Shown here in pieces: positions 18,234 to 48,259 of a DNA stretch of 64,000 bases. The first letter of the stretch is position 1. Each line of letters starts with the position of its first letter. Location of the stretch: contig NMRA01000242.1 of the NCBI GenBank assembly GCA_002633005.1, positions 1 to 64,000 of the forward strand, written 5' to 3'. The position numbers were made by a program, and so were the translations under genes. This DNA is from Phoronis australis (Eukaryota; Animalia; Phoronida). Under the pieces are notes generated by a model. The model saw nothing but the letters and a program-made list of their open reading frames with translations. It had not been told where the DNA came from and searched no databases.

Positions 18234-18416
18234 NNNNNNNNNNNNNNNNNNNNNNNNNNNNNNNNNNNNNNNNNNNNNNNNNNNNNNNNNNNNNNNNNNN
18301 NNNNNNNNNNNNNNNNNNNNNNNNNNNNNNNNNNNNNNNNNNNNNNNNNNNNNNNNNNNNNNNNNNNNNNNNNNNNNNNNNNNNNNNNNNNNNNNNNNNN
18401 NNNNNNNNNNNNNNNN

Positions 18417-20592: not shown

Positions 20593-21186
20593 TTAAAAGG
20601 GCCGTTTGTGTTCTAGCTGCCTAATTGTTCGCCAAATGAAGGCCGTGAACAACTTGCACTTAAGTGACCTGTAGAGGCGGTAATGCCCCTGGTCATTGAG
20701 GTGTACCTGGTCTCGGTTCATAAGCTTCCTGTTGCCGTTGAAGCGCCGGTGGATCCAGAATTTCACGGTGGGATCGGTTTCCAGAGACTGTCCGAGGAGG
20801 TGGTTCAGGTCATCGGCCTTGTCGTTGTACCCGTCCAAGTGATACCTGTATAGTACAGACGACACGATGACAACCCGCACACCGTAGTCCTCTTTCAGAC
20901 GGGAAACCAACCGAACAAGACGCCTGCGAACGTGGGGCGGTTCGTCCGTGGACAAATCATTCCCACCGACATGCAGAATGACGACGTCTGGCCGAAAACT
21001 GGATACCATATGGAGTTGCTTGTAAATTGACCTGGTGGTCATTCCGCCAACACCATGAAGCTTGACAACAGGATCCAACGCAGTCAAATCGAAGTTGAAG
21101 TTCGTCGACGGCTCTCGCAACATATAGTCGCGGAGTCGACGTACGTGGCTGCTCCCGAGGATCAGAATTCGCTTCGACATAGTCAT
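20593..21186 (-). CDS. Intronless SGNH/GDSL-like hydrolase (esterase), probably mobile-element encoded
   Basis: All four SGNH blocks are present: ILGSSH (I), GVGG (II), HVGGND (III), DQVH (V). GC-rich relative to flanks. Likely start MTMSKR at 21186/21180 (two CCAAT boxes at ~21251 and ~21288) rather than the track start at 21342. Confidence 0.85.
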   Translation of the reverse strand: MTMSKRILILGSSHVRRLRDYMLREPSTNFNFDLTALDPVVKLHGVGGMTTRSIYKQLHMVSSFRPDVVILHVGGNDLSTDEPPHVRRRLVRLVSRLKEDYGVRVVIVSSVLYRYHLDGYNDKADDLNHLLGQSLETDPTVKFWIHRRFNGNRKLMNRDQVHLNDQGHYRLYRSLKCKLFTAFIWRTIRQLEHKRPF

Positions 21187-21807
21187 CTGTTCGATCCACC
21201 GCTCACTCTCACATTTTATTGTACTGCGGCAGAAACAGTCCACAGAATTGCCAATCAGAATTGCCAGACACCGAGTGTCAGAAACTGACCAATGAGAATA
21301 AATGTTTTGGATAAATTTGATATTCAGGTTTGTTGTTGACATTCCTTTGAGGAGTAGGCCCTAACTGCCAAACTAAGAGAGTAGCGGTCCTCTATAATCA
21401 CAGTTAATACCTCGGTCATTGTGTGCTGTAAACCTACCTCTTGCTGTGTAGTTAATAAAAGAGTGGACTTAAGGAGCCGGTAACAATGCTTTGATGTTGG
21501 TCAAAGTTTTACCTGTTAACTTGTTTGCTGTGTAATCTGCCTAAATCATATAGACAACTCTTTGCGCGGAAAATCAGTCCTTAACTGACATTCAACAAGG
21601 GCAAATTACTGACGCCGTACGCGACGGTATTTTTGAATACAAATTAACAACGAAAATCCTCATACAATTCCCTGCTCGCTTGGCATTATGAACGACACAA
21701 ACGTCTTTTACCCCCTGTAGGTGCCTAAATAAGTTTTGGATAAATGAGGCATACTACAATTTGTATTCCTATAAATAACGTATATATAGTATAATCAGCG
21801 TTCAGTN

Positions 21808-22244
21808 GTGGATCCAGAATTTCACGGTGGGATCGGTTTCCAGAGACTGTCCGAGGAGGTGGTTCAGGTCATCGGCCTTGTCGTTGTACCCGTCCAAGTG
21901 ATACCTGTATACATGTAGTACAGACGACACGATGACAACCCGCACACCGTAGTCCTCTTTCAGACGGGAAACCAACCGAACAAGACGCCTGCGAACGTGG
22001 GGCGGTTCGTCCGTGGACAAATCATTCCCACCGACATGCAGAATGACGACGTTTGGCCGAAAACTGGATACCATATGGAGTTGCTTGTAAATTGAGCTGG
22101 TGGTCATTCCGCCAACACCATGAAGCTTGACAACAGGGTCCAACGCAGTCAAATCGAAGTTGAAGTTCGTCGACGGCTCTCGCAACATATAGTCGCGGAG
22201 TCGACGTAGTGGCTGCTCCCGAGGATCAGAATTCGCTTCGACAT
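21808..22244 (-). pseudogene. SGNH hydrolase copy C, frameshifted and 3'-truncated
   Basis: Copy of 20748-21180 with a 1-bp deletion just after GSSH (cgtagtgg vs cgtacgtgg), a 6-bp insertion and a 7-bp deletion of the first ATG; part of the ~1.04-kb duplication 21808-22844 of 20748-21797. Confidence 0.7.
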
Positions 22245-23756
22245 AGTTCGATCCACCGCTCACTCTCACATGTTATTGTACTGCGGCAGAAACAGTCCAC
22301 AGCCGGAATTGCCAGACACCGAGTGTCAGAAACTGACCAATGAGAATAAATGTTTTGGATAAATTTGATATTCAGGTTTGTTGTTGACATTCCTTTGAGG
22401 AGTAGGCCATAACTGCCAAACTAAGAGAGTAGCGGTCCTCTATAATCACAGTTAATCCCTCGGTCATTGTGTGCTGTAAACCTACCTCTTGCTGTGTAGT
22501 TAATAAAAGAGCGGACTTAAGGAGCCGGTAACAATGCTTTGATGTTGGTCAAAGTTTTACCTGTTTACTTGCTGTGTAATCTGCCTAAATCATATAGACA
22601 ACTCTTTGCGCGGAAAATCAGTCCTTAACTAACATTCAACAAGGGCAAATTACTGACGCCGTACGCGACGGTATTTTTGAATACAAATTAACAACGAAAA
22701 TTCTCATACAATTCCCTGCTCGCTTGGCATTATGAACGACACAAACGTCTTTTATGATCCCCTGTAGATGCCTAAATAAGTTTTGGATAAATGAGGCATA
22801 CTACAATTTGTATTCCTATAAATAACGTATATATAGTATAATCAAGCTTGCAAACGGGGATAAAATAATCGACAGCGCGCCTTAATTTTAATAAAATCAA
22901 ATCATGGACAACTTTATCGAATTTGCTGAAGAAATGTGGCGAATAAATTTTGACAGAAATTATTTTGCTAGACCCGGGACCGGAGCGTATCGGACCGCGT
23001 GCCGATTGAGACCAGACACTGGCGAACGGTAAGTGCATGCGGTTGCGAGCTGTTTTGTCGAAGTAAAATGCTCAAATCATAAATGCCGCATATATTCAAA
23101 GATAGTTTCAGACACTTGCATGAAATTACGGGCTGGTTAGTCCTGTGTCACACTGCAGCGGCAGACGTTAGCTACATGTAGCCTCACTGCCAGCTACCAC
23201 TGAGGACTATCGTCAAAATACCGCTTGTTAGTACATGTAGGCCTGTACAGCTTTGCGTCAAGGCTACCCTTAGGACTAACTGGTCGCTGGCCACAGCGCT
23301 CGCTCAAACGAGGTTTATTTAGAACTTGGGTACTTCTCGCGAACTGTGCAAAGTTGTTGGCTTTCAATAGAGATTTGCTCAGACTTTGTATGAGCGCACC
23401 AAGCCTAAAAGAATGGGGGGGCTGGAATTTTTGGGAATGTCTACCTTTTACTATAAGATTCACTGGGTATGTTCAGAGCTATGAATTGCAGACGCTAAAT
23501 TTTGGTACTTCCTGTATTCTAGAGGAATATTGTCTTGTTTTTTACTTTTTTCGGAATTCGTGCTTCTCTGACTGAGGCAGACCTTTTTCCATTTCTCCAA
23601 ATAGTAGGCTCGTTCGAGCACATAAGTATGACAAGTCCAATACAAAATGTTATCATTTTTATTCATTAACCCAAAATGATTCAAACTTTTAACATAATAA
23701 GTAAATTAAAATATACAATACTTTACAACATTTAGCATTACAAACACTATTCAACA

Positions 23757-27009: not shown

Positions 27010-27488
27010 CTTGACATGTGAAATTAGTCCAAGTCGCATCATAAAGTCATCGTTAGCTGTCATCTTCACAGCAGGAACATAATGTATATGCCAATTTTCA
27101 CAATCATCCTTAGAGCGGTTTGGTTGATAGAGGAGCAAACGCCAAAAACAGACTCGACAACAGTAAAAATGCCCATTAGAGGAGGATGGAGTCATCTCAC
27201 TAATAGATGCCTGTCTGCCAAATTTTATGAAAATCCGTTGAGGACCTTTGAAGATAGGCCTCCGGAGGTGAACATAAAAATCTAAAATTGCCACTAGGGT
27301 GCATACCGGCAGTCGGATCCGTTCGCAAGTTCGCTCACGCTCATCCCATCTATGAAAGCGACACACAATTTCATGAACAATACATCAAAGGATTTGGAGA
27401 TACTTAGAGAAACGGACGTCGGACGCCGGACGGACGCCAGACGGACGGACAGCGATGACGCTCACATACAAATATGTGGGCGCATAAA
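27010..27488 (-). mobile_element. Partial copy of the HINE-like family
   Basis: Ends ...ggacgccagacggacggacag...atatgtgggcgcataaa, homologous to 38880-39338. Confidence 0.7.
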
Positions 27489-29859
27489 TATGTTGTTGAA
27501 ATTTGTTCGGAACACATTTTCGGTGATGACAGTTCGAAACTTACTTCCCCATTTTCCATGGCAAGAAACGACCTGGGAACTATCGAATACAAAAAAACTA
27601 TCGACGCATGCGCGGTGCAACTTCAGCCGCACGTTATCGAAGTTTCCATTATTAGAATTCTAACAAAGGTTACAGAAAACGAACCCTGTCATGGCAAGAT
27701 ATTGTTAGGGTGACTTTACAGAAAAACTCTTAATTTGAACAGCGTTTTAGCAAACTAATCGAAGCGAAATGCAACTCTCATGAACCAGGATGTAAGGCTG
27801 TCGGATTTATGCATCCCCATTGACAGTTTTTCACGAATTTGCATTAAGCTGTTCCTAAAATTTAGGCATGGGTGACATTCTAATACCATAACGAGGTTTG
27901 ACTCCCTCTCCCGTCCAATCATCTCCAGCTGTCTGTGCCTAGAGGTGTCTGGTTGCCCTCCATAGGTTACCTACATGTACTTAGTTAATCGAGCGTTACG
28001 AACTACGTAGGCTGTACATCGGGACTTTCACGGCCGTAGTCTGTGTGCAAAGAGTAATTATTTCCTCTAAAATATGAAATGGGCTGTCATGAGTTAACCG
28101 TGAACGATAAGGGTAACACTGTATTATGCCACGTTGCATTTTAACATAATATTTAACCGTTTTGGGTTTAATAAAGAAACTTTTAAGAGAAATTTCTCGA
28201 ACCCTGAAGTAAAAGACAGGTTTGAAAATGAAATGGCGTGTTTATTTAAAAAAAAAAAAACGTATCCCTGTATTCAAACAGAACAAAGCACATTTAATCT
28301 TCAAGTGATAAAAGACGCTTTTCAGTTGTAAAAATAACTGGACACATAACTTCAGCTAACAAATGTGTGAAAATTGTACTAAAAAATCCAGTAAAGGCCT
28401 ACATTATAAATGGCCAACAGCAATACATGATTAACCATCACTATCCCAAACCAGGTTTCCAGTGACACGATAACACACTAAACATTGTGGAAAAACTTAC
28501 AAAGCAAATTTTGAACTAATAACAGCACACATACGAACAATCACTATTTCAAACTTCACTGAACACATCATCAACTAATTAATTAATTTTTTCATATGTT
28601 CGACTCTCTGCTCCATAACCTGTAACTCGAACCAACAGTCTGAAAACCGATGAACCATTGGTCGCGGTTGATGAAATAAGATTACAAAGAACTTTAGTTA
28701 AACTTTTGCTGTGACAGTCCCAAACAATACAAATTGTCCTTTTAAAAATCAATCATAATCAAGGTTCAACTTAAAGGAAAAAAATAACTCATGTTGATCA
28801 GGCTTTTTGAAGTTTTGACTAACGACAGGATAGGAAAGGTGGACCAAAATGCGAAGAACGGAAGAGAAAGACGAGGTTGTGAACTAAACGTCATTGTTTG
28901 ATGTATTAGCACTCTATTAAAACATGCAGTGAATATCAAGTATTGAAATGGACATAGTTGGCATTATCACAACAACTGTGTAGTTTTTCGGGCGAGTGTA
29001 CACAATCAGTAATGCAATCTCAGATATAACAAATGAAATAAAATAATGGTTCGTCCTCCCTATCGCAACCCCGTCCTTCCCATTTCTCGTCCGACATTCG
29101 CATTCTGGGCCCGTCCTTCACATTTCTCATCCATCCGTCAAGGTCGGCAGTCCAAGCTTCAAGCAATAGCCAGTTTATAAAATAGTGACCATGAACTACA
29201 CATTAAAATAAGTTGGGTTGCTAGATGCCCGTACGACATGGACGGATATTCAAAGTGGTGCTATTTGCGGGATTCATCAACGTTGTGCATTGGGATATGA
29301 CTTGCGCAAAACAGATGGTGACATGTTTGTGAATGAAAAAAATAGGACTCATCTTGGTCAACTCTGCTTCTCTTATCCACTGCACATTGAGATTCAATAA
29401 GCACACAGTCACTTTCCTAGCTATAAACAACTTGTATTTGCACGGTTTGCTGTTGACAGATGGTCTATAAATACATACAACTGCAAATGGTAAATGATGA
29501 CAAACAGATTACAGGATCTCCACAATTTATCTCAGGATAAATTAGCATCAATTAATTAATCCACATAGGGTATACGAAATCAATTTTGTACAATGCATGA
29601 TATTGACTAAACTTGAAAGAGGTCATCAATCACTATGGCTACTTCTCTTCATAATTGGTGGAATTTGCAGGTAACTGTTACGCAAAGAAATGCTTGCTTT
29701 GTTTATGTTACAAGTGTACTCGACTCCTAACGCCAAGGGTTTCGCTTTTCAAAATTGTGTCTACTACCAATTTTAGTATTTAAATCATTGACTGCAAACA
29801 TATTTAGTCTGGTCAGCTCACCACCTGTTGCCCACATCATGTGACGTAACGACTATAAG

Positions 29860-29939: not shown

Positions 29940-30750
29940 AAGATTACCCTCGAATACAGAACGCCTGAGTGTATATGAATGGGTAAATCTTAAAGAGGTG
30001 TGGAAACTTAGACGATCAGCGATTTTAGTTTGTTCGGCCGGTGGTAGTTGAAGGTCCTGGATTCGTGTTACAGTGGGGACAGGGATCTTCTCACACTAAT
30101 AGTCCTTCTCGATGGTTCCCTGCGTGTCCGCTAGGGGCCGGGGTAGAGGACACGCAGGTATCATTCAGCAGTAACCTCGGCAGTAATAGGCCAGCTTTGC
30201 AACAAAGAAAGAAAGTAGCGGACTGTGAACGATTTTAGCCATAACACATCTTTGTGAACCAAGTTTTCTCTCTACTGCAAATATGTTTCAGCAGTAGGGT
30301 AATGTTTAATAGCCATGTGGACGATTTACATGTAGGATGTGTTATTCATACTAGTTGAATACAGGGCAGCAACGTAAACAAACGTCAGCGCCAGTAGAAA
30401 AATGCACACTGAAAAGGCACAACCACAACTTTACAACAGACCACAAACTACATCCACATTTACACTTCATCAGTCGTGCCAGTTTGTTTAGTAAAGCCCT
30501 CCCTGTTAACAATTCGACCAGCCAATTAGAAACGCCAGTGTAAAAAAATTCCAGGGGGAAAGTTAAATGATACCTGCTGTTTTCTACAACATAGGAACAC
30601 CAGGGAACCAGAGAGACTTTTATTAGGTCCAGTGATGTGGCCAATAGGTGGCGGGCTGACTAGACTTAAAAGTTTGTGATCCATACCGACTACACACCAT
30701 TTTAGGATTTGACATAGGCACTTCAGATAAGAATTAACTGACAGAAGAGT

Positions 30751-30893
30751 TTATATGCTAGTTTCTCTCACAGGAGTCACCTCTTGCACATCAAACTGGA
30801 TTTCAGGAATTTTCTCAAGCTCTTCACTTGTTTTGTTCTGTCCAACTTCTTTCATGAACACTTTTCCATTCTGGTCACATGCCATGAAGTAAC
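30751..30893 (-). CDS. IL-1-like gene last exon (GYFMAC...EIQFDVQEVTPVRETSI*)
   Basis: ctttaacttctcag acceptor, TAA at 30753-30751, AATAAA on minus strand at 30624-30619. Confidence 0.83.
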
Positions 30894-33800
30894 CTGAGAA
30901 GTTAAAGTGAAATTCTGTCCAAATTAATGTATTGTCAACTACTAATGAAATCCATCACATAATGCATCATAGCCAGGAAGATAAGATTTTATAAACTCTG
31001 AAGAGTATCCCATCTGTTCAGTAAGTTGTTAACCGACAGGGTCAGCTGATGTCTCACAACAAAAGTACCAGGTCCTCTGGAATTCAACTTTTCCTTAAGA
31101 AATTAGGACTTTATTTCCTTAAATATCAAGAGCACCTACTAACAGGTAAATAGTGACATTTGGGAGGTTTAGTTTCAGGGTGCCAAGGGTCTCAAAACAT
31201 ACACACCTCGAGTCAGTATGAATAATTCTACCACTATCTATTTTATTTATATTGTAAACCCAAATACAGCAATAAGCAGAAAAAGCTCTGAGTCAGCCCG
31301 GCCGATCATACTCAAATTCCGAGTGCCCCTTGATCTCAACCTCAGGACCTGATTTGATTTGACTTTTGTCATGAAACCGCTGCTGGATTATTTTATGAGC
31401 ACCCTCAAAAGAATTGAGGCCGGGGTCACAGACAGGTTTTTTTGTGCTCATTGACTTATCAGCTGATAAGATGCAAGTTTGTTTGCTTCTGCTTCTTAGT
31501 AAATTTTTGTTTCTACATTTGTAGAACCAATTGCAACCATTGTAATTCTGTGAGTTAGTGCGCACCTTACATAAACCATGGCCTTCTGTATATTTGTTAT
31601 ATTTCTTTTATTGCACGGGTACCAGATAGTCTTAATAAGTAGTAAAATTCTTTATATGTGAAGTCCAAGAAGGCAGACGATCACCATGTATAATCACGAG
31701 TCAAAATTTCAAAGACAAGTATATAGTCACGGCTTAATACCGACATACCAGCGAGGCTCGTGGTCTACAAATTCCACGCACAGTGATTTTTTCAGGACAG
31801 TCGGATCTTGCTGATAAATTGAAGACATTACTGTAGAATTTTAGAACTGTTGGTAAGGCATTTTTCACATGTACACGCCGTTCATGGACAGGGCGCTTAT
31901 TTTAGCAAAGTCTAAAAACGCGTGGGGGGCGCTTATAGGAGCATGGGCGTTTATTAGGACGAATATGGTAAATATTGTTATATGTATTCTGTTATACAGA
32001 CTTTGTTAAATGCACGACACTTTTCATTGTTCACAGTCTTTATTCCGTTGCGTTCATACTTTCGGGAAAGACTGCAGTCTTTCCCGTCGGTTATCCATGC
32101 ATCTTCAAAATGGCGCCATTCAAGATCATTTTCTGCAATACCACGCACGTAAAATCACCCGTCAAGAAATTGTGGAAAACACGTCAATTCGCTACGTGGA
32201 GCAAGATATGCTGCGTTTGAAAGTATTAGAGTCCCTTTTAATTGCTTTTGAGAAGCCTGTTTTGAATGAGCAGCAAACAGGGTCGCGCCACACGTTACAC
32301 TTGTTTGCGTGACTTTCCTGCTACCCCAATTCATTAGTCATTCTTTGCAGTATTTCACACCCGCCATGTCTCACTGTGTGTGTCGTCAGCTTATACTCTG
32401 TGGTGGCATTACTGCATCATTTTATCTTCACTTGAGAATGAAACAAGTATGTTTCGAAATATCGTGTGTCTTTTAACTATGTCGCTAGGTCAGTTACTGT
32501 ATCTATGTTCAGTTGAGAGTAGAGTTTTGTTCCGAAAGTATGAACGCAACGGAATAAAGACTGTGAACAATGAAAAGTGTCGTGCATTTAACTAAGTCTG
32601 TATAACAGAAAACTTGCTCCCGAAGTACAGTCAGTTCAAGTTATATGTATTCTGTAAAAGTGTATACAACAGAAAGCAAATAACAATGTAAAACCATTTG
32701 CACTTACATTAACGTACTCTCTCCCTAAGTTTAGTAGAACAGGGGCATTCGTAACTGCTCGTGGAACTATTTCCATGACAACGATAGCACGCTCATGATC
32801 CACTATTTCATATCACATTTTTACACCACTTTCTGTTTTTAACCACTAGACTTGAGCCAGAGCAGATTCGCATGTAGGTAAATCTGATGGGAAAGTCATT
32901 CATCGACATATGATTATGAAATGTGTAAAAATCACAAAGATATATCTATTGCCACAGGTCGTGGATCAAGGGGGTTGTGGGTCTTGGGTCGTGGGTGCTG
33001 TGGGTCGAGGGTCAAGGGGTTGTGGGGTGCGGGGACCGGGTTGAGGGGGTTTAGAACAACGCAACATGATAATTGCAACAAATAAAACAAAATACCTTTG
33101 TGTGCAAAAGACTCGAAGAACACCACATTGCTAAACTTGCTGATCCTGAACAGCATGGGTTTCTGTTTTTTGAGATTATTAAGGTTGATGCCACTAGATA
33201 CCTGAAAATGAAGACATGCTTATTAATTAATTTAGTGATACAACGTTCACTAGGGGTGCTTTAAGTAGACCTAGTTTCTCGCAATAAAAGCAAGATTACG
33301 CAAGACCTTGCAATATCATCTAAATGAAAGTTGAGTGTTTCACAAGAATGCTTGTAACCTAGCAAAATGGCAGCCACTGAAGTGATTGGTTGGATGCTGG
33401 AGAGTTGCATTATGGGATAGAATTGATGAATTACGGGATAGAACTCACTGTTTCTGTTCCATAAACAAACATTTCTCACCTGAACATAGCTAATGTCTTG
33501 GGTCAGCACAAAACAGTCCTGGCATTTACAATTATACTACTTGTATTACCACAAAGACATGTCAAGAAAACCACAAACTTAACTACCTCATTGCACATAA
33601 TATCTGCTAACAGCAGATGTGGGTGCTGAGGGTCATTTGAGTTGAGACTAAGTTCCCTCTGTATGTGCCCCTAAATGAGCGTGAGTAAATATTACAAATC
33701 TCTTTCAGGTCACATGTTCCTTGCATCATGTGACCAACATATAGTGTGTAAGACATAAAATAATTCCTAACCTATCAAAATCTTTCCTTCTCAAAATCCA

Positions 33801-36800
33801 ACTCCTCCCCATCCTTATCGTAATTTCTACCCCTTCTTCATCTCATAACGCCTCCCCTTCCCATCCCATACCTATTCCTCTTCCCATTTCACAACTCCTA
33901 CCATTCTCAGTGTCATAACTCCTTCCCATCCCATACCTATTCCTCTTCCCATTTTACAACTTCTGCCATTACCAGTGTCATAACTCCTCCCCTTCCACAT
34001 CTCATAAGCCCCTCCCCTTCTACGCAGTCCATTCTCATGCCACACTTTTTCATTCCCCTCTGCCTCCTCTCATTATACCTTTTCTTTGCTATCTCTTGCC
34101 ATATCTTCTCATCCTCTTTGTTCCACTCCCTCCCTCATTCCCTCCCTCATTCCCTCCCCCATTCCCTCCCTCATTCCCTCCCTCTCTCATTTCCTATTTA
34201 TAACTATTCAGCTTCTTGTATACTTACAAGTAAACGAACTTCCTTTTTATTGGCATAAAGATACAAGTTGTTGGATTTAAATGCAGCAACAGAATTTAGG
34301 AATGCTGGGCGGCTGTCTATCGTGTCCCACCCACGGTAGTTATGTTGATAAAAAACAACTGCAATCAAAAGATAAAAGCATGAACTATATAGTTACAATA
34401 ATGTACATAGGTGATAATGCCAACCCCAAGAATTAACCTAAATACTCACTTTAATGAAATTGTTAGCAAAAAATATTGTTGAGCAGCAGCACAGGAGTAA
34501 TTGGATCTGACAGACACACGTTCAAGTAAAAATTATGCATCGCATAACGAGAACAAAAAGCTAAAAGATCAATCCAGTTGACTGCACCACAAAGTCCTCT
34601 AGTTAAGTCCCAATACCATCAATGAGTGATTTGTGCTTCAAGTAACCAGTTTATGCTCTCTCCCTCACCGTTTTCACTAATAGTATTTTTGCACATATTT
34701 ACAATGTACATCTTGTGTAACACGTTTCTCACGTCAACCTGCATTTTTCTCAAGCACCATTCTTTTTTTCCTATGAACAATTGTGTCTCTTTTACAACTG
34801 TAACCTAGCTCATAATTTGAATCTGACAGATAGTGAATTTGGAAATAACTTACAGTGATCATCGCCATTGCCCATGGGGCAGGCCTGTACTGAGGAGGTT
34901 TCGTGGCACCACTTAAAAGCTTTGCCATTTGAGAATATGCGTACTTCTGGACAATCATCAAAAACCAAGTCCTCTATTTCATCTGACTTGTCTGCCGACA
35001 CAGTGTCTGTTTCAACCCTGATATATATTTGGTCAGACTCAGAATCTGAAAAAGCAAGATGCAGCCAGAGATTAAGTTTCGTTTATTAATCCAAGACAAT
35101 TTTCTTCAGATATTGACAAGAGAAAGCATGAGATGTTACAAAACAAGCCACACAACTGTTCATCTGTCAAGCACAGCAGGCAATGTACAAAATGTGGCAC
35201 GCAGGTGTACATCTTTGTCAAGCACAGCAGGCAGTGTGCAAAATGTGGCCCGCACATGTACATCTCTGTCAAGCACAAAAGACAGCGTAAAAAAATTGAC
35301 ACAAAGGTGAACATCTCCGTCAGGTACAGTAGAAACTATACAAAATACGGCAAACAGATGTACATCTCTGTCAAGTACAACAGAGAGTGTAGTTTGCCAT
35401 GACCAAAGTAAAAAAAATACTTTTCAACTAATTTCTTACCATAAGATAACTCCTTAATGGTAATCTTGACTACACTGTTGGTCTTTTTTACAGTCTGAAA
35501 ACAGGATAGTATATCAGCAATTATATTTATGGAGCTCTGGTTTCAAACATTGTTTTATTGATAGCAAGCTATTTCAAGAATTTGTACTTCACTAAGTTCA
35601 TAACTGAGTCATGTGACGAAAAAGAATTTAGCATTGAAAAAGGATGGTACATTCATAGCAAAACAACAATATCAGTAACATAGACAAAAAATTTGATATC
35701 AATGTTAAAGATGAAATCTCAAAAACACTGTAGTTACAGTTTTATAAAATATAATTTTATTTTTGTCTTATGCAACTTTTGAGTTTTTTCATAAAAATTC
35801 TGAGTCATGAAGGTCCAATTTTTAAACCCGTTCACGTTAAAGTATAACACCTAAAAAACAATAGAGAAAAGTGCATAAAGTATTAAGTTGAAAACACAAC
35901 TAAACTCTTTGTTTGAAAGCTTAATACCAAGTCGCTCATAGTGTCGAAACAATTACCTTTCTTCAGGTGTGCAGCTATGTTGCTTTCAAACAAAAAGTTT
36001 AGTTGTGTTTTTGACAAAGTTTGTGTTAACAAAGGGCTGGTACCTAACTACAATAAAAATCCTTTGAGAAAGTTTCATTTGAATCCATTTCTGAGATATG
36101 ACATTCTGAAATTAGCCAAAATTGTAAATTTTCTAGGATTCCATACATTGTTAAAGCCTTAGTTGAATAGAATTTTGTTATTTTAGATGTATTTGGCTAA
36201 CCATGCAGTCCTAGCAAAGCCTTGGTAAAATAAGAAAATGCGAGTTTAATCACGCAAATGTCAGCCTGTCAAATGATAGATGAAGCTGCCTTTACATGCC
36301 ATATTGCGTCACCACTAGATCCCAGCACAAACAAGGATGATATCAGTTGTATTGAATGTTTTTAAAGTTAAAAGTGGTCTGCTGGATTACCTTTTTTGAT
36401 TTCCTAGATCTTCAGAGACATCTCGTCTGCTTCGATGGAGGTTGATTGTGATGAGTTGCACGAACTCTGGTCGAGAGAGTATGGAGGCAGTTTCGAGGTC
36501 CTACATGACCAGAGTTCCCGCAACTCATCGCAGTCAACATCCCATCAAAGGAGATGAGAAGTCTCCGAAGATCTCGAAAACCAAAATAGGTAATCCAGCA
36601 GACCAGTTTTAACTTTAATATCATGAACATTCCTGGATGGCTCAAGATCTACATTTTATTAGTTGTATTGAATAGGAGCCTGAATAGAACACCAATGGTG
36701 TGCAGGTTTATTTGCAGCTATTTCTATTAAAAGGTGACAGAGACAAAAGCAAACTGATATGCCTAACAATTCATAATATTTGACCATATAAGGCACTAGT

Positions 36801-39800
36801 GGGCTCAGAACAATGCTCTTAACATAATTTAGGAACTGCATTTACAAGTGTCACCATTCAAGATACATGTAACTATCAATTTTGGATATTTGCAAAATGT
36901 AATGTCTATATTTTGTATAAAATTATATCTAAGTCAATATTTCTCATGGCTGCTCATAACACTTCACCAAACAATTATTCACACACCAAATCTGTGAATT
37001 GTTTGATACTTCAGTTAATTTCAAATTTTGTGGCACCAACTTTATTAGCCATTTTCAAGCTTGTTCACTTTCAATGTTTTAAACTGTTACGGTACTGAAC
37101 ATCTATTTCCTTTTATTGCATTGACTGGTTCAAAGGGAACTTTGCACACTTATTGTATGGTCTATGGTTATGGAAACCAAGTCTCAATGGAGATATCGGC
37201 AAATAAACTAGAGACTAAATGACAATGAAAACAAGAGAAATGCGCAGTGTTGATATGCATCCGTTGTGGACCAAAAATGCCATGTTCCTAGAGTGCTTAT
37301 CAGGTCATGAAAGGTAAAATGAGAATAAAATTTGACTCAGGTTCTGTAAAGGATTGTAGCAATGCGTGCTGGGTTCTATGCATCCTGAGTTCTATGTATC
37401 CTGGGTTCTTTGAGTTCACAGTTCTATGTGTCCCAGATTTTATGTGTCCCGTTTTATGGATTTCGGGTTCTATGTGTCCAGAGTTTCATGTGTCCCAGGT
37501 TCTATGTGTCCCGGATTCTATGTGTTATGGTCTTTTGTATTATAGTCCAGGCGCTAAGCGAACAAGTGTGCAAATTTTAGCTACAATCACCATTTTAGGT
37601 CCACACGACAACTTTGAGGTACTTTTTCGATCCTGGTATAGGGCAAAAAATTGACCTCATTAACCCTGAGCTGCATGCATAATTAAGTCAAAACTTGGCT
37701 TAACAGCATAAATTAAATGCATGCATATCTCTGAAACCACTTGACAAAATCTCAGGATATTTGGGTCGATTCTTATGTTCACCATTCAAGGCCAAGATCA
37801 CGTAAAAATTTCCTAAAAGACTGCTATCCTTAACCAAAAAATGTACATAACATTCAAACCACAGGCAGTATGTGCAGGTTTCATAAGAAATTGTCATACT
37901 TGGTCCAAATGACCATTTTGAGTTGCCCTTTCAAACCTGATAAAAGGCAAATTAATTCGACCTCATTAACTCTAAGTTCCAAGCATAAATAGCTTATAGT
38001 TGTTGGTCATAATTAGCATAATTTACTTGTGAGCATACTATCAAACCATTTGGAGGTATCATCTATGGCTTGATTCTTACCAGTATGTTAACCCGGGTTG
38101 TCCAATTCATTGTTGACACATTTAAAGTCATTCCAGATCAAAATCAAGTGACAATTCCTCCAAAACTGCTATTTTTACCCAAAAAAGTACATAACATTCA
38201 AAAAAGGCCAGTATGTGCAGATTATATAAGAAATATCCACACTTTGCCCACGTGATATCAAAACCAACAAGAGCAACGCGGAGCGTTGAAATGCGCCCAC
38301 AATTGCACCGCATACGGTATCCTTCTAGGGTTGTTTATTGGTACCATAAAGTCGCCAGTAGAGGGCATACTTTGCAAAATGGAAAGGCATGGTCATTGTC
38401 TCCTCAATAGGCTAGGGGCAAAATGTGCGTAATCTTCATAATACAAGCACATCCTATACACCAGTTGCTTAAAGCACCACAGAAACATAGAATTAAAAAC
38501 AAATTTACCAACATACGAGATTAGCACAGCATTAGAATGCCAGAAACAAATTTCTACTTGGAACTTTTCCTTCACAGTCACGAAGTAACACAAAGTATAC
38601 ACCTGAAGACCTATGAAAATACAGAGGTCAATGTAAAATACTAAAATTGCCACTAGAGGCAAATACTAAAATTGCCACTAGAGGCATACCGGTAGTCAGA
38701 ATCATCCTAAAGTCGTCATCGTCCGTTGTCAACATCACATAAATACACTTGCTAAATTTAGTAAAGATCCTGCAAACGGTTTGGGAGATACAGCCATGGG
38801 CGCAAAAAAACAAAACTGCCACTAGGAGGCGCCACAGTAGTCCAAATCGTCTGAAAATCATTGTCAGCTGTCTTCCTTATAGTAAGCACATACACGCCAA
38901 TTTTCACAATCATCCTTTGAGCGGTTTGGTTGATAGAGGGGTGGACGCAAAAATACAGACTCGAAAACAGTAAAAATGGCCACTAGGTGGCGCAAACTAC
39001 GTCGAATCCATCTGAAAACAGTAGGATAGCGTCATCTCACTAATAGGTGCCTACATACCAAATTTCATGAAAATCCGTTCAATACTTTTGAAGATACAAA
39101 GGTAAGCGTAAAAAACTAAAATTGCCACTAGGGGGCACACCGGTAGTCGGATCCGTCCGAAAGTTCGCACATGCCGTCCCATTCATGAATGGAACATATG
39201 CGCCAAATTTCATGAACGTATGTCAAAGGGTTTTGGAGATAGAGCAGCGGACGCCGGACGCCGGACGCCGCCCGGACGGACGGACGGACAGAGATGACGG
39301 CATAATGCGTCCACATATAAATATGTGGGCGCATAAAAAGGGCAAAAAGTTCGAACAGAACCCCGATGTCCATAAAACTGAACACATAGACCACAGGACA
39401 CATAGACAACAGGAAACATAGACCACAGGACACATAGACCACAGGACACATAGACCACAGGACACATAGACCACAGGACACATAGACCACAGGACACATA
39501 GTCCACAGGAAACATAGACCACAGGAAAAATAGACCACAGGACACAGACCACACGAAACACAGACCACAGGACACATAGACCACAGGAAACATAGACCAC
39601 GGGACACATAGACCACAGGACACTTAACCACAGGAGACATAGACCACAGGAGACATAGACCACAGGACACATAGACCACAGGGCAAATAGACCTCAGGAC
39701 ACATAGACCACAGGACACATAAAACCTGGGACACATTAGACTGACCCAGTTCTGAACTAGTCTCAGTATTCTCACAAAAGTGATGACGCTTCAACATTTA

Positions 39801-41934
39801 ACTAATGTCAAATCAAAAAGTATAAAATGAAAGTCACATGATTATAAAGGACAATGTACAAGCTTAGGGTTGAAAAATAACAGTCATGACGCTATTGGAT
39901 GATTTGATAAATGACTTTGGGAAGATTGATAATTTCATTACGCTATTAAGCCACTTTCCATTAAAAATATGGCCTTAGATCACTTAGAACTATCTTGAAA
40001 CTGGTCTCAACCTGCTCCTGCCTCAAACTGAAGGTGACTTCTGGCGTTTAGAAAGAACTGACCATACATTCAAAATTATCATCAGTTTCAACACTGTAGA
40101 AAACACCCTTCTCTCCCTACAGTGAACACTTAACACATTCACGAAAATGGTGATAATGTGAACAGTACTAAATTTGTTTTATCATGACAAGTCATTGTGT
40201 ATGGGCTGAGCATGAAGTCCTCAACAAGCAACACCAGATGGCAGCAGAAGGTCAATGGCAGACAACAATGATAAGAAAGTGTTCAGTTTTGCTTTCAGTT
40301 TTGCTTTCAGTTGTAAGTAAATTTTTTTGGGTACTTACTTTCATTCAAAATATGAAAAGTTTCCTTCAACCATCAGATTCCAGTTGTGATAACTTTGTTA
40401 ATTTCATCATAACAAATTGAATCCTTGGCTAAGCCCAGTTACCACGTGACAGACAACAATATATCAGTTATATTGATCAACAAAGTAGGAAAACAATAGC
40501 AGGTAACAATAACAGCCTAAAAAAGGTACATGCTGCAGGTATCAGGTGCCCAGCTAGAATTCCACCTATACCACAACCACACTGTCAAATGAGTCCAAGC
40601 ACTATATTTTATCTGCTGCAATAGCTGAACTTACAATACTTGAATCTTCCTCACCCGCAACCAGATGGCGCAGCATATCGATAACTAGGTCATGTTCCAA
40701 CATGGTTACACTGAGATCCCCAATGTTCAACAAGGTGTACTGATTACTAAAAAATAAAAATTTAACAAAAATAAATTAAATCCTAGTACTGTATGCAAAA
40801 AAGTTTACATGACAACCAATATTACTCGCTACACAAAAAGCAATAAAGTCTACATGACAACCAACCTGACTCGCCACAATTATTCTAATTTCATCTACTG
40901 AGAGTCAGACTGTCTCTTCAGTAAGAGATAACACACTTTCATTTTAGTAACTCCTTTTGAACACAAAGTCGTCATTAAGATAAAAATTGCATGCAGAGGT
41001 TTATGTTTTCCATTGCAGATGAAACGTGAAGAAATAATCATTGTGTTACATTAGTTCAATATGACAATGTTATGACACCAATCATGCGTGCACCCGGCCT
41101 AAAATGTAGGGGGACTCGAATTTTCGACATGCGGACCTTTTACTGAAAGAAATCAACGAGGACTAAAACAAAAACAAAAAAACATGGCCACTAGGTTCAG
41201 GCCTGCGAATTGTGCATCCTCGCCGACTTCCCGTGGATTTTGTGGACTTTTGTCTCGTTTACTCGGACTTTTTATTTCACTGAGGCAAACCTTTTTGCCC
41301 AATTCACCAAATTAGCGTGAGCCCCCCGAGCCCCCCCCCCCCCTGGGTGCGCCCATGCCAATGCAGAAATACCGTAATCCCAGTTCCTTAACCAGTTCAT
41401 CCTCTTCATCAAGGTTAGTAAACTCATGGCTGCCATGTGAACCACCAGTTTTTAACCAAATTTTAGTGACATGGTCTTTAAGAAGTCGCACTTGACTCGG
41501 CTGGGAATGCTGTAAAACAACCATCACATATTCATCATTTGTGGCAAATCAACCACTGACCAATTACAGATCACAAAAATTTCAAATTTTGCTAAAACAA
41601 CTATGCTAAGTTTGACTGTGGCCATTTGAGTTTACAGGTACTTTAATTTTTTAAAAATTTGAGAAGCCAGGTTCAACATGTTTTTTATTTTTACCACACC
41701 TCTAAAAACTAACAATAGATATATATATATAAATCAAACTAAACTATGATGAAAAACAGACAGAAACCGTGTTTACGTGCACGTCAACTTCATGTCTCAA
41801 TCCATGATCTGTAACTCTCCAACTGAAGTTAAGAATCAACTTACATCATTCATCTTGCATGCTTTCTGTTCTACACCATCTTTATCTCCCTCAACATGCC
41901 TCTTATGTCCTGATGGTGAATTCATTGTCAACAT
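30751..41934 (-). CDS. PDZ-like + IL-1/IL-18-family beta-trefoil cytokine-like protein (8 coding exons, 321 aa)
   Basis: Exons 41934-41845, 41509-41373, 40746-40635, 35494-35440, 35045-34854, 34358-34228, 33201-33096, 30893-30751. All introns are GT-AG, phases 0,2,0,1,1,0,1, and join into a 966-nt ORF ending TAA. Protein: MLTMNSPSGHKRHVEGDKDGVEQKACKMNDHSQPSQVRLLKDHVTKIWLKTGGSHGSHEFTNLDEEDELVKELGLRNQYTLLNIGDLSVTMLEHDLVIDMLRHLVAGEEDSSITVKKTNSVVKITIKELSYDSESDQIYIRVETDTVSADKSDEIEDLVFDDCPEVRIFSNGKAFKWCHETSSVQACPMGNGDDHFVFYQHNYRGWDTIDSRPAFLNSVAAFKSNNLYLYANKKEVRLLVSSGINLNNLKKQKPMLFRISKFSNVVFFESFAHKGYFMACDQNGKVFMKEVGQNKTSEELEKIPEIQFDVQEVTPVRETSI. FESFAHKGYFMAC resembles IL-18 FESSSYEGYFLAC; KSNNLYL resembles IL-1b KEKNLYL. 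Alternative start ATG at 41925. Confidence 0.82.
31987..32610 (+). mobile_element. Penelope-like retroelement 3' fragment with inverted terminal arm (last intron of IL-1-like gene)
   Basis: GIY-YIG C-terminus LSRRLSMHLQNGAIQDH...LKVLESLLIAFEKPVLNEQ* (~32073-32312); 79-bp inverted arms 31987-32065 and 32532-32610; hammerhead-like cttgagaatga...tcgaaa at 32430-32460. Confidence 0.75.
33096..33201 (-). CDS. IL-1-like gene coding exon 7 (VSSGINL...MLFRISKFSNVVFFESFAHK)
   Basis: cttcattttcag acceptor, donor GTATTT, phase 0/1; carries the F-E-S IL-1 family motif. Confidence 0.83.
33820..34190. repeat. Pyrimidine-rich low-complexity region with ~65-bp direct repeat and (TCCCTCCCTCAT)n
   Basis: Direct reading. 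Confidence 0.8.
34228..34358 (-). CDS. IL-1-like gene coding exon 6 (FVFYQHNY...NNLYLYANKKEVRLL), 131 nt
   Basis: ttttgattgcag acceptor, donor GTAAGT, phase 1 in / 0 out. Confidence 0.83.
34854..35045 (-). CDS. IL-1-like gene coding exon 5 (acidic linker + first trefoil strands)
   Basis: ctttttcag acceptor, donor GTAAGT, phase 1/1, 192 nt open. Confidence 0.82.
35150..35390. repeat. ~54-bp tandem repeat x4-5 (intronic)
   Basis: gtacatctctgtcaagcacag... recurs at ~54-bp spacing. Confidence 0.8.
35440..35494 (-). CDS. IL-1-like gene coding exon 4 (TVKKTNSVVKITIKELSY)
   Basis: cctgttttcag acceptor, donor GTAAGA, phase 0 in / 1 out. Confidence 0.72.
36366..36614. mobile_element. Palindromic MITE with TTAA TSD (Kolobok/piggyBac-type target)
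   Basis: ttaa|agttaaaagtggtctgctggattacc ... ggtaatccagcagaccagttttaact|ttaa, plus an internal hairpin. Confidence 0.75.
37370..37530. repeat. Diverged 18-bp repeat in inverted orientation to 39385-39735
   Basis: (ggttctatgtgtccc)-like units. Confidence 0.7.
38266..39338 (-). mobile_element. Non-autonomous Helentron-associated (HINE/DINE-1-like) element, full length
   Basis: 5' subTIR ATGCGCCCACA within a hairpin (39334-39305) followed by a (GTCC)n-like microsatellite. Internal ~150-160 bp diverged repeats. 3' subTIR (38291-38301) followed by stem-loop CAACGC-gga-GCGTTG (38274-38288) and a T-rich end. Confidence 0.8.
39385..39735. repeat. 18-bp minisatellite (CATAGACCACAGGACACA)n, ~19 copies
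   Basis: Direct reading; explains the repetitive ORFs 39128-39775. Confidence 0.95.
40635..40746 (-). CDS. IL-1-like gene coding exon 3, PDZ-like core (NQYTLLNIGDLSVTMLEHDLVIDMLR...)
   Basis: tttttag acceptor, donor GTAAGT. Pattern GLR-x3-LL-x-IG-x2-V-x3-H-x2-V-x2-LR resembles PDZ betaD-betaE-alphaB. Confidence 0.8.
41083..41357. mobile_element. Same MITE family, copy 4 (intron of IL-1-like gene)
   Basis: catgcgtgcaccc...gggtgcgcccatg flanked by ccaat/ccaat. Confidence 0.8.
41373..41509 (-). CDS. IL-1-like gene coding exon 2 (HSQPSQ...KELGL)
   Basis: ttttacag acceptor, open frame, donor GTATTT, phase 2. Confidence 0.78.
41845..41934 (-). CDS. IL-1-like gene coding exon 1 (MLTMNSPS...KMND)
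   Basis: Acceptor ttgaag upstream of 41944, two in-frame ATGs (41934, 41925), donor GTAAGT, phase 0. Confidence 0.7.
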
Positions 41935-45059: not shown

Positions 45060-46190
45060 CAGTACTGGAATTTGGGCAAGTGTTCAGACATTGGGACGTT
45101 TATTCCGAAAATTGCAAGAGATGCAAATTGGTCCTGAGATACAACGTCTTTGACAAAAGCGCCAAGTTTGAAGTAGGCTGTCTATGATGAACGGGTCAAA
45201 TACATAGTTGCGCTTGTAACTCTTTTGAATGGACATGACAACGTGAGGACCTTAGTGTCAAGCAGCAAAACGAGACGTTGACATCGTAGACTGAGTCTTA
45301 CAAGCTCAATGACACAGCAAGCATTAATTGAGAACAAACATCGAAGATGTCTGGGTAGTTCCAACTTGAAGACCGCGCAAACCATTTGATCCGATATTAC
45401 TCGGCAGTCCACTGAGACAACAGAAGCTAACGTGCCTCAAGAGACACCCAAGTAATAAATCATAATTCTACACAGTTTGTACACAATCTCGATTTTCTGA
45501 CATACTTTTTTTCTTTGATGCTTGTGTGCAATGTAAACGAAACAGACTTATTAGTTTTCGGACATGCCAAATAGTATACCCGGCCGAGTAAAGGAAGTAA
45601 TGACGGCACAGGGTCTACGATCGAGCGCACAGAAACTGATTCTTATCTAGTAGCTTCATAACCGAAATCTATTTCACGTAATGCTTAGTTAAATTTGTAC
45701 TCAATACTTGTTTCTTCCAGTGAGTACTACAGAAGAACAGTGTGTAGACAACCTCTCACATCAGTTGACCACCCGGTTTTCGAAAGACAACAGGCAGGTG
45801 GAAGCTGTCATGTCTTGTGCCATTAGTGGTTAGCAGGATGAAGGATGTAGACTTAGGCTCACTGGAGGATAGGCTGCATTTCTGGGATACAGACTTGCCA
45901 CCACCAGATTTGAAGGTGACTGACTATCCGTTCTGACTATCCGCGTTCTGAGCAACACGTTTTGTCTTCTGTTAAATTTCCAATTGCCCTATGTCAGAGA
46001 AGCATAAAAAGTAGAATATCTTTTGCTCTCATTTCAGCAATAACTGCGACGCTGGCGGTCCTTCTGGAATGCTCAAAATCGAGAGGAATTCCCAGATAAC
46101 TTGCGTTCCACACTCAAGCACGCAGACGGTGACCTCATCTTCCCAAACGTCAGGGAGCTGTTATTGATAGAATGTCTATTCCCTATTGGA
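45060..46190 (+). pseudogene. Decayed intron-containing hAT transposase C-terminal half
   Basis: Disrupted peptides YIVALVTL, EYYRRTV/DNLSHQLTTRFS, LEDRLHFWDTDLPPPDLK, FPDNLRSTLKHADGDLIFPNVRELLLIECLFPIG (hAT dimerisation domain). Splice-like acceptors at 45720 and 46037; interrupted by a CATGGG-terminated MITE at 46191. Confidence 0.65.
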
Positions 46191-48259
46191 CATGGGCTCT
46201 GCAGCATTGAAAAAAGTGGGGCTGTAGCCCCCCCCCCCCCCCCCCCCCCCCCCCNNNNNNNNNNNNNNNNNNNNNNNNNNNNNNNNNNNNNNNNNNNNNN
46301 NNNNNNNNNNNNNNNNNNNNNNNNNNNNNNNNNNNNNNNNNNNNNNNNNNNNNNNNNNNNNNNNNNNNNNNNNNNNNNNNNNNNNNNNNNNNNNNNNNNN
46401 NNNNNNNNNNNNNNNNNNNNNNNNNNNNNNNNNNNNNNNNNNNNNNNNNNNNNNNNNNNNNNNNNNNNNNNNNNNNNNNNNNNNNNNNNNNNNNNNNNNN
46501 NNNNNNNNNNNNNNNNNNNNNNNNNNNNNNNNNNNNNNNNNNNNNNNNNNNNNNNNNNNNNNNNNNNNNNNNNNNNNNNNNNNNNNNNNNNNNNNNNNNN
46601 NNNNNNNNNNNNNNNNNNNNNNNNNNNNNNNNNNNNNNNNNNNNNNNNNNNNNNNNNNNNNNNNNNNNNNNNNNNNNNNNNNNNNNNNNNNNNNNNNNNN
46701 NNNNNNNNNNNNNNNNNNTTGGCTGCCGCAAAAAAATAAAACAGCAAGAGCGTAGGGAAATGTTGAGTTTATTAATTAACCCCGGTAATTAAAATTGTAC
46801 GGCTGAAACAAGATTTAAATGTGTACAGTTTTAGTGTTTGGGGGGGGCTCAGATCCAATTTCAAGTGTCACGGCGCAATCGTGACGGAACTATTGCTAAG
46901 TATAGGCTCTCCCGCGTTATCTCAGGCGACCGGCAGTGTCGCTGGGCACTACGACTCCCTTTCCGTCGTCTGCTCCACTGTGCAATGAAGAAAATTACTT
47001 CATTTTTTTAAAAAAATGGAATCTTTGTGATGGTGAAAAAACAGAAGCTGCTGGTAAGATGTCAATTTTAATCGAAGCCTTAGTGAATCACTCAGAAACT
47101 CATAATTCTCTCTTTGTCAAACCTTAACTTAAGACGATTTCCAAAGCAATCGCGTCATTATTGCCAACACAAAAAACGGATTTGGTCTTTTGGGCAATTG
47201 AAGACTAGCAGGAAAAAAAAAACCAAGTACGGTTTTCGATTTTTAAAAATCGATTAACTAATAATCTAAAAACTGCAACCATTGGGTACGATTGAAGATA
47301 AACTACCGCACGTATTGATATTCTTGGTGGATATACAAACGCTGATCAGAGTTAACAATATCACATGGATTCATTTTTTTAATATTCTTTCAATCTCGTT
47401 TTACCAGATTTTTGACCAGGAAAACAGTTGTACTTAACTTGTGCCCACTTTTCATTTTTATTACTGACAAAGAGCTAGAATAGTTATATAGTCTGTGCCA
47501 CCGAAATTGTCCAGAGATTCCAAATCTTCAGTTTGATTATCACAATATTTGCACTTCTGTATATATTTTATGATTTGAGTTCTAATAAAGATTAAACTTT
47601 AATGACTCGTGAAATGTTTAGTGTACCTGTAATGTGGTAAGTTGATTGGTTCCCAATGAATTTAACTAATTAAGTTTAGCTGGCGATCAAAATCTACCAC
47701 TGTTTCGGTACTTCAAGTTTGATGAAAAGTTATCAGCCCGTTCCCGGTAAGAAAAAAAAAAACAAGTGGGCAGAAGCATTAAAAATTAAATAAAAAAACC
47801 AACATGAAACTTATCGTTCCTTTGGGAAGTGGCCCTTTGTGAAGATAAACACAAGTTAACCTTTTTAGTCATTTTGTAATATCTATAATGTACCAAGACA
47901 AAACTACTCTCCAGAGTTGCAAGCTTTAACTCTGCAAATGTCAGAGAAAGCCAAATTGGGGGTACTAACAACAACCATTGTTGAGACAGTAATGCTAGCA
48001 ATTACCTAGTTTTTTACTTCAATAGCTCAGATCTACATCAATACACAGGGCGCCCTGAATAGGCATTGTAAAAGTTGTTTGGGGCTTGGGGAATCCGAGA
48101 GCCGTCACCAGTGCAAGCGAGAAATTCTCCATATGACCAAAGAGATAAATATAGTCCACATATAGCTCAATGGGTCCGAAGTTGGAAGTCTAAAATGCTC
48201 TTAATGCCAGCGTGTCTTTCAGTGGTTGGACCTGGACAACGGGCCGCGTAATCGGCTTT

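What the first reader, a model, noticed from the sequence alone, without database searches (positions are those of the whole stretch)
30751..41934. Hidden invertebrate IL-1/IL-18-like cytokine with an N-terminal PDZ-like domain
Seen: eight small exons, invisible in the ORF track, splice in phase into a 321-aa leaderless protein. Its C-terminal ~160 aa carry IL-1-family hallmarks: FVFY, KSNNLYL, PMLFRI, FFESFAHKGYFMAC and the final strand EIQFDVQE (IL-18 has FESSSYEGYFLAC...SIMFTVQNE). The N-terminal ~100 aa read like a degenerate PDZ. Established: IL-1-family cytokines are leaderless beta-trefoils long regarded as vertebrate-restricted. Inference: this is an ancient invertebrate-type IL-1 precursor in which a PDZ-like module serves as the pro-domain. 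I recall that structure-based searches have recently reported PDZ-bearing IL-1-like genes in invertebrates, so literature novelty should be checked, not assumed.
Basis: partly seen in the sequence, partly recalled or inferred. Interest (0 to 1): 0.9.

Follow-up and report, generated by a model that had tools for sequence, protein, structure and literature searches.

The report
Unlisted invertebrate PDZ–interleukin-1-like gene
This is a real, spliced and transcribed eight-exon gene whose 321-residue protein is likely an 'ancestral interleukin-1' (a PDZ-like head joined to a predicted IL-1-like tail), a family already described in invertebrates in 2025-2026, so it adds an unlisted member rather than a new kind of molecule.

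Summary
Observation confirmed. Eight minus-strand exons (41,934 to 30,751) join through GT-AG introns into one open 321-aa frame with no signal peptide. RNA reads show 5 of the 7 junctions directly; introns 3 and 6 have only indirect support.

The layout (PDZ-like exons 2-3, trefoil-like exons 5-8) and the (F/L)ES motif match the IL-1anc family of Fontenla-Iglesias et al. 2026 (PMC13736523). The protein is not in that paper's Table S2. The scan found this family before on other DNA.

The whole protein was not folded. Single-exon searches were blank, and exon 6 alone folded as a helix, so the trefoil rests on motifs and gene layout. 'PDZ as pro-domain' is untested: in the paper only a PDZ-less member was cleaved by caspase.

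One extra: two runs from two studies carry a second version, with 16 amino-acid changes against 3 silent ones in codons 159-266. It loses the Asp-Asp at the candidate cut site and alters the predicted beta4/5 loop (partial lists, pN/pS not significantly above 1).

Verdict: new member of a known kind.

The parts
41845..41934 (-). Exon 1, aa 1-30: polar, likely disordered N-terminus; no signal peptide; no obvious basic NLS cluster (by eye)
   Evidence: intron 1 junction reads 8/9/7
41373..41509 (-). Exon 2, aa 31-76: first half of the PDZ-like domain; the Gly of the carboxylate-binding loop appears to be missing (by eye)
   Evidence: by-eye comparison with Table S2 entries
40635..40746 (-). Exon 3, aa 76-113: second half of the PDZ-like domain (strand-strand-helix with the conserved His); Tyr where PDZ domains usually have the Asp of GD
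   Evidence: pattern in 6 of 100,000 shuffles, written post hoc; intron 2 reads 16/8/17
35440..35494 (-). Exon 4, aa 114-132: likely last PDZ strand and start of the linker
   Evidence: best of 5 candidate exons; its 3' junction read 6/5/13 times
34854..35045 (-). Exon 5, aa 132-196: acidic linker (38% D+E in aa 131-162) and predicted trefoil strands 1-3 (aa 165-168, 174-178, 183-187)
   Evidence: single-exon model, pLDDT 51
34954..34959 (-). Asp161-Asp162, candidate caspase-type cut site just before the trefoil; both changed in the second version of the gene
   Evidence: cleavage untested
34228..34358 (-). Exon 6 (131 nt, phase 1 to 0), aa 196-239: inferred strands 4-7
   Evidence: intron 5 joint. 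Against: folds alone as a helix
34309..34335 (-). Codons 204-212, inferred end of strand 4 and beta4/5 loop; 5 amino-acid changes between the two versions
33096..33201 (-). Exon 7, aa 240-275: inferred strands 8-9, with the FES motif at aa 268-270 (33,117-33,109)
30751..30893 (-). Exon 8 coding part, aa 275-321 and stop: inferred strands 10-12 and a short tail
   Evidence: intron 7 reads 12/4/10
30200..30750 (-). 3' UTR, at least about 550 nt; AATAAA at 30,624 and ATTAAA at 30,310; no AU-rich element cluster
   Evidence: strand-biased depth 16/8/18 in bin 30200-30606

Best explanation
The gene is spliced and transcribed and encodes a leaderless 321-aa protein that is likely an IL-1anc cytokine precursor: a degenerate PDZ-like domain (about aa 34-130), an acidic linker (131-162) and a predicted IL-1-type beta-trefoil (about 163-312). 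Shown: exons, open frame, expression, absence of a hydrophobic leader, the (F/L)ES motif and the family's exon layout. Inferred from the family: the protein is made in the cytoplasm and is probably raised on infection. It would leave the cell without a signal peptide (gasdermin pores or cell death), with or without a protease cut in the acidic linker (candidate Asp161/Asp162), and the basic trefoil (about 18.3 kDa, pI about 8.7) would bind an Ig-TIR IL-1-receptor homologue to drive NF-kB/AP-1 signalling. The PDZ-like head seems to lack the loop glycine needed for canonical C-terminal peptide binding, so it more likely acts as a folded cap or docking unit than as a classical PDZ scaffold.
For: Gene model and expression. 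Family definition (N-terminal PDZ, C-terminal trefoil, no signal peptide, (F/L)ES in strand 9, under 500 aa, trefoil on 3-5 exons). The authors' peer-review reply puts the PDZ in exons 2-3 and the trefoil in exons 5-8 for ambulacrarian members; this gene has that layout. Four patterns read from Table S2 occur once each and in the right order: PDZ strand-helix at aa 81, strand-4 pattern at 196, strand-8 pattern at 254, FES-x4-G-x-F-M at 268. They occur in 6, 413, 19 and 140 of 100,000 shuffles. A fifth pattern did not match. The FES-x4-G pattern is completed only across the RNA-confirmed intron 7. The exon 5 model has three strands where trefoil strands 1-3 should lie (low confidence). Induction and caspase processing in other members.
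Against: The joined protein was not folded or profile-searched. Pfam on 7 of the 8 exons gave no PDZ or IL1 hit even at E 10. PDB sequence, atlas, homolog and phmmer searches with single exons gave no relative. Exon 6 alone folds as one helix (residues 12-36, pLDDT up to 87) where four strands are expected; single-sequence models of short peptides lean to helix (my knowledge). The patterns were written after seeing both the table and this protein, so the shuffle counts overstate the case. Intron 3, the PDZ-to-trefoil link across 5.1 kb, was not seen in reads. No IL-1R, GCC2, ESD, EIF2A or TRAF3 was recognised in the window. No strict NF-kB site lies in or near the gene. In the paper no PDZ-bearing member was cleaved, and receptor binding is unproven for the whole family.
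Confidence: 0.85

Rival explanations
1. An IL-1anc by descent that acts uncut or inside the cell (IL-1alpha-like alarmin, or an intracellular PDZ-trefoil adaptor) rather than as a caspase-matured cytokine. This rival concerns the processing step only.
For: 7 of the 8 IL-1anc proteins tested were not cut by caspase. The second expressed version here lacks both Asp161 and Asp162. The gene is expressed at a basal level in three runs.
Against: The acidic linker holds eight Asp residues in aa 132-162, six of which are not among the listed changes. Other proteases could cut.
Confidence: 0.4
2. The C-terminal domain is another beta-trefoil (FGF, fascin, ricin-B or actinohivin-like) or another beta-rich fold, and the IL-1 motifs are convergent.
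For: No profile or fold hit was obtained. The exon 6 model is helical. FGF genes also have a phase 1/0 central exon (recalled).
Against: The PDZ-plus-trefoil order, the eight-exon layout and FES-x4-G-x-F match IL-1anc specifically. No QxW or fascin-type repeats are visible by eye.
Confidence: 0.07
3. Two adjacent transcription units: exons 1-3 (a PDZ fragment) and exons 4-8 (a PDZ-less IL-1-like protein).
For: The intron 3 junction is not among the rows shown. PDZ-less IL-1anc proteins exist.
Against: Exon 3 ends in a GTAAGT donor and exon 4 starts at a strong acceptor in the same phase. Exons 3 and 4 are covered on the same strand at similar depth. Exon 4 carries the expected last PDZ strand.
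Confidence: 0.04
4. For the second version only: it is a recent paralogue, a cryptic-species copy or a copy under relaxed constraint, not a selected allele.
For: pN/pS of 1.5 is not significantly above 1 (binomial p 0.36-0.39). 7 of 28 changes are CpG-type transitions. Each run shows only one version, which fits separate populations or sample-specific paralogues. IL-1anc genes often expand.
Against: Silent divergence is similar along the gene (pS 0.040 vs 0.031-0.046) while replacement divergence is about six-fold higher after codon 158 (18 of 21 changes, p 0.0016, post hoc), so lineage separation alone does not explain the pattern.
Confidence: 0.55

Closest known systems
IL-1anc family (Fontenla-Iglesias et al., Nat Ecol Evol 2026, PMC13736523; preprint PMC12338702); by eye nearest to Lingula LanaIL-1.2 and scallop/mussel PmaxIL-1.x, MtroIL-1.x
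   Same: N-terminal PDZ-like domain, acidic linker, C-terminal trefoil-like domain, no signal peptide, (F/L)ES-x4-G-x-aromatic motif, PDZ in exons 2-3 and trefoil in exons 5-8. The strand-4 pattern [FY]-x-F-x4-[FY]-x-G is seen by eye in 5 of the 9 brachiopod and bivalve entries.
   Different: Not listed in Table S2. The PDZ is more degenerate (loop Gly and GD Asp apparently absent), so the paper's PF13180 screen might miss it (inference). Short N-terminus without an evident NLS. None of the published neighbour genes was recognised in 64 kb. A strongly diverged second version is expressed.
Fish nIL-1F (lumpfish; PMC7144542)
   Same: PDZ plus IL-1 family domain in a 352-aa protein, with predicted protease sites.
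   Different: Vertebrate branch of the same family; no sequence comparison was run here.
Mammalian IL-1beta / IL-18
   Same: Leaderless precursor with an acidic region before a trefoil and FES in strand 9. A 131-nt phase 1/0 exon starting at strand 4 recalls IL1B exon 6 (recalled, not verified; one search found no paper).
   Different: They have no PDZ. Here an extra intron splits the motif after FES-x4. No Pfam IL1 hit on single exons.

Membership tests
IL-1anc | (F/L)ES motif in strand 9 of the C-terminal domain | tested here: met
   FES at aa 268-270 followed by x4-G-x-F-M; 140 of 100,000 shuffles
IL-1anc | No signal peptide; under 500 aa | tested here: met
   321 aa; hydropathy only, no SignalP run; start codon not fixed
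IL-1anc | Gene layout: PDZ in exons 2-3, trefoil on 3-5 exons (5-8) | tested here: met
IL-1anc | Conserved phases of the central PDZ and trefoil introns | not testable with these tools
   The phases here are 0,2,0,1,1,0,1; the paper gives its phases only in a figure that is not held
IL-1anc | N-terminal PDZ domain (PF13180 or fold) | tested here: inconclusive
   No Pfam, PDB or atlas hit on single exons; the strand-helix pattern with the conserved His matches (post hoc); loop degenerate by eye
IL-1anc | C-terminal 12-strand IL-1-type beta-trefoil by structure prediction | tested here: inconclusive
IL-1anc | Linkage to IL-1R, GCC2, ESD, EIF2A or TRAF3 (cnidarian and ambulacrarian loci; supportive, not universal) | tested here: inconclusive
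   297 flanking frames scanned in Pfam (most taken from the 467 listed outside the gene), none recognised; small exons are easily missed and only 64 kb is held
IL-1anc | Induction on immune challenge; protease processing; receptor binding | not testable with these tools
   Sample conditions are not given; bench work is needed
Classical vertebrate IL-1beta / IL-18 | IL-1 propeptide without PDZ, and a Pfam IL1 match | tested here: inconclusive
   Exon-level Pfam blank; the N-terminal part reads as PDZ-like, not as a propeptide
FGF / fascin / ricin-B trefoils | Family profile or best structural match | tested here: inconclusive
   No Pfam hit on single exons; whole-domain fold search not run

The most novel reading that the evidence does not exclude
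A single invertebrate IL-1anc locus carries two long-lived, functionally different alleles. They are about 4% apart at silent sites but differ at 16 of 108 residues in codons 159-266. The changes cluster at the candidate protease site (Asp161-Asp162 present or absent) and in the beta4/5 loop, which in mammalian IL-1beta versus IL-1Ra helps to decide co-receptor recruitment. One allele would be caspase-matured and the other not, or they would differ as agonist and antagonist: a natural experiment on IL-1anc processing and receptor use, kept by balancing selection.
Probability: 0.12. Interest if true: 0.65.

Novelty: new member of a known kind. Interest (0 to 1): 0.3.

Why it matters
It extends the recently described ancestral IL-1 family to a gene that the published catalogue does not list and that single-exon database searches did not find. 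Its degenerate PDZ suggests that PDZ-profile screens undercount the family. It does not overturn anything: invertebrate PDZ-IL-1 proteins are in print. The possible added value is the pair of expressed versions that differ at the candidate cut site and the predicted co-receptor loop. If they are alleles, they give a ready-made test of two open questions the paper leaves: whether PDZ-bearing IL-1anc proteins are cut, and whether they signal through Ig-TIR receptors.

Tried and rejected
No whole genome is held, so paralogues, receptors and caspases could not be sought.

The run index listed no RNA holder; three raw-read runs and one contig set were laid instead.

Homolog searches with exon 5, with exon 7 plus five read-through codons, and with a neighbour-gene exon gave 10, 6 and 6 candidates, none significant. 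phmmer with exon 8 gave 5 hits, all repeat-rich unrelated proteins, so they were rejected.

A first exon set with a wrong exon 5 acceptor gave stops and was corrected. Four other exon 4 candidates were rejected on score or phase. An alternative donor 5 nt earlier in exon 3 that skips exon 4 was considered and dropped, because reads join exon 4 to exon 5.

NF-kB consensus: 16 matches in the window against 2.8 expected, but none between 20,016 and 48,763. Twelve of them are six sites each counted on both strands, and four of those six lie in the 93-bp arrays.

One of five patterns (strand 6) did not match the protein. A paper search for the 131-bp exon found nothing. Look-ups of earlier scan notes by place, sequence and relatives were blank.
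Full report
THE GENE. The quoted motifs lie on the minus strand. Reading the sequence and scoring splice sites gave eight exons: 41934-41845, 41509-41373, 40746-40635, 35494-35440, 35045-34854, 34358-34228, 33201-33096 and 30893-30751. They give 966 nt and 321 aa (36.6 kDa, pI 5.5) with one terminal stop. All seven introns are GT-AG (335, 626, 5140, 394, 495, 1026, 2202 nt), in phases 0,2,0,1,1,0,1. None of 200,000 random chains of the same lengths stayed open; that null ignores the freedom to choose boundaries, so the reads below are the stronger evidence.

TRANSCRIPTS. Three RNA-seq runs of one study (X2-X4, about 18-19% of each read) and one contig set of another study (X1) were laid on the locus. 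Joints at the predicted sites: intron 1 8/9/7 reads, intron 2 16/8/17, intron 4 6/5/13, intron 7 12/4/10, all with the first mate on +. Intron 5 appears as 17 reads in X4 and as an X1 contig, each with one changed letter beside the joint. That is 5 of 7 junctions seen directly. Introns 3 and 6 are not among the 15 joints shown (72 hidden). Intron 6 has indirect support: the X1 contig piece runs three bases past the exon 6 end, the three bases shared by the donor and the start of exon 7, and has 175 further bases. Intron 3 has only in-phase splice sites and same-strand coverage of exons 3 and 4. Coverage continues at least 550 nt past the stop. The start codon is not fixed (Met1, Met4, or an upstream exon).

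ANATOMY. There is no hydrophobic leader. Residues 1-33 are polar. Residues 34-130 read as a PDZ: a strand-strand-helix pattern with the conserved His matches at aa 81. By eye against Table S2 entries, the Gly of the carboxylate-binding loop and the Asp of the GD motif are replaced. Residues 131-162 are 38% acidic, with eight Asp in aa 132-162. Residues 163-312 hold the IL-1-type patterns in order: strand 4 at 196, strand 8 at 254, and FES-x4-G-x-F-M at 268, the last completed only across intron 7. The four matching patterns occur in 6, 413, 19 and 140 of 100,000 shuffles; a fifth did not match; all were written post hoc. A fragment from 163 would be 18.3 kDa with pI 8.7.

WHAT COULD NOT BE SHOWN. 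The spliced protein was not folded or profile-searched, and no relative was found to stand in for it. Single exons gave nothing in Pfam (7 exons), PDB sequences, the atlas, two homolog searches or phmmer (5 unrelated repeat proteins). Exon 5 alone gave three strands at aa 165-168, 174-178 and 183-187 at pLDDT 51, with no meaningful fold match. Exon 6 alone folded as a helix with pLDDT up to 87. This counts against the reading, though weakly for a 43-residue piece without an alignment. The trefoil is therefore inferred.

WHAT IS KNOWN. A search for IL-1, PDZ, invertebrate and trefoil returned Fontenla-Iglesias et al., PMC13736523, and its preprint PMC12338702 (the preprint seen as a listing only). 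Of PMC13736523 I read the abstract, sections 6, 7, 9, 10, 11, 12, part 1 of the Extended Data legends, passages on phasing, parts 1-5 of 7 of supplementary file 4 and passages of files 1 and 3. The figures, including the intron-phase figure, were not visible. The paper defines IL-1anc as PDZ plus IL-1 trefoil without a signal peptide, with (F/L)ES in strand 9, from cnidarians to fish. The peer-review reply places the PDZ in exons 2-3 and the trefoil in exons 5-8, as here. Lumpfish nIL-1F is an earlier member (PMC7144542, passages).

IS THIS GENE LISTED? Three motifs of this protein occur 0 times in Table S2 (cells are cut at 400 characters, but a 321-aa entry would be whole). 'IL-1anc' occurs in 3 records, 2 listed, both this work. 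The authors mention more than 80 further ambulacrarian members that I could not see, which might include it. By eye the protein is nearest to brachiopod and bivalve entries (strand-4 pattern in 5 of 9; not counted in other groups), so a marine spiralian is my guess. The scan has noted the same family in other genomes, which is not independent evidence.

MECHANISM. Inferred from the family: cytoplasmic synthesis, induction on challenge as in lamprey, sea urchin and anemone, unconventional release, and binding to an Ig-TIR receptor, which is undemonstrated for any member. Only SpurIL-1.3, listed without a PDZ, was cut by caspase, and none of the lamprey proteins was. The best candidate site here is Asp161/Asp162, just before the first predicted strand. 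No strict NF-kB site lies in or near the gene, and none of the published neighbour genes was recognised in the window.

A SECOND VERSION. Run X4 shows other letters in all of its reads at the listed exon positions (for example 24 of 24), where X2 and X3 show almost none (0 at all but one place: 1 of 17 in X2 at 41,881). The X1 contig shares the six exon 6 changes that are listed for it and has the same count, nine, in that exon. I took 29 listed exon differences, dropped one that all three runs share (41,447), and translated the rest. Codons 1-158 have 3 replacement and 4 silent changes. Codons 159-266 have 16 replaced residues (18 nt) and 3 silent changes. None is listed beyond 266. Five changes fall in aa 159-164 and remove both Asp161 and Asp162. 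Five fall in aa 204-212, the inferred beta4/5 loop, which in IL-1beta versus IL-1Ra helps to decide co-receptor recruitment (PMC6596353, passages). Replacement changes are enriched after codon 158 (18 of 21, p 0.0016; Fisher p 0.043; boundary chosen post hoc), but pN/pS of about 1.5 is not significantly above 1 (p 0.36-0.39), and 7 of 28 changes are CpG-type. The tables are truncated (122 and 853 rows hidden) and reads under 93% likeness are lost. A paralogue, a cryptic lineage or relaxed constraint are at least as likely as balancing selection. One search for invertebrate IL-1 polymorphism under balancing selection listed 4 papers, none on this by title and abstract start.

VERDICT. A real, expressed gene, likely (0.85) an IL-1anc member, not in the published list: a new member of a known kind, interest 0.3. 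The most novel reading left open is a balanced pair of functionally different alleles (probability 0.12, interest 0.65).

Noticed in passing
window 52,459-62,635 (+): A divergently oriented multi-exon gene (exons near 52459-52512, 53548-53654, 54660-54812, 55105-55216, 57649-57877, 58366-58469, 62471-62635). It resembles major-vault-protein/SPFH-type proteins by eye (recalled); Pfam, PDB and homolog searches on single exons were blank.
   Followed up: partly
window 17,810-18,232, 20,596-21,360, 21,808-22,272 (-): Three near-identical intronless GDSL/SGNH esterase-like frames (PF13472, E 1e-13 for the 255-aa copy) set among 93-bp tandem arrays at 16,198-20,087; probably repeat- or transposon-borne.
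   Followed up: partly
window 38,266-39,339 (intron 3): An interspersed element of about 1.07 kb with very deep strand-biased RNA coverage (up to about 2,800-fold, from many genomic copies), sharp ends with A/T-rich loose tails, and a GGAC microsatellite near one end. It looks like an active or UTR-borne non-autonomous repeat; a related piece lies at 27,298-27,660.
   Followed up: no
window 39,382-39,721 and 37,372-37,525: The same 16-bp tandem unit occurs in opposite orientations on the two sides of the intron 3 element, suggesting a composite inverted-repeat structure.
   Followed up: no
window 61,666-61,971 (-) and 46,044-46,253 (+): A THAP-domain-like relic (E 0.0006, below cut-off) and a fragment that reads like a hAT transposase C-terminus by eye (Pfam blank).
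   Followed up: no
window 16,945-20,015: Four units of the 93-bp array match the NF-kB consensus on both strands; probably incidental.
   Followed up: no
window 41,447: All three RNA runs differ from the window at this silent site in exon 2, so it is private to the assembled individual or an assembly error.
   Followed up: yes
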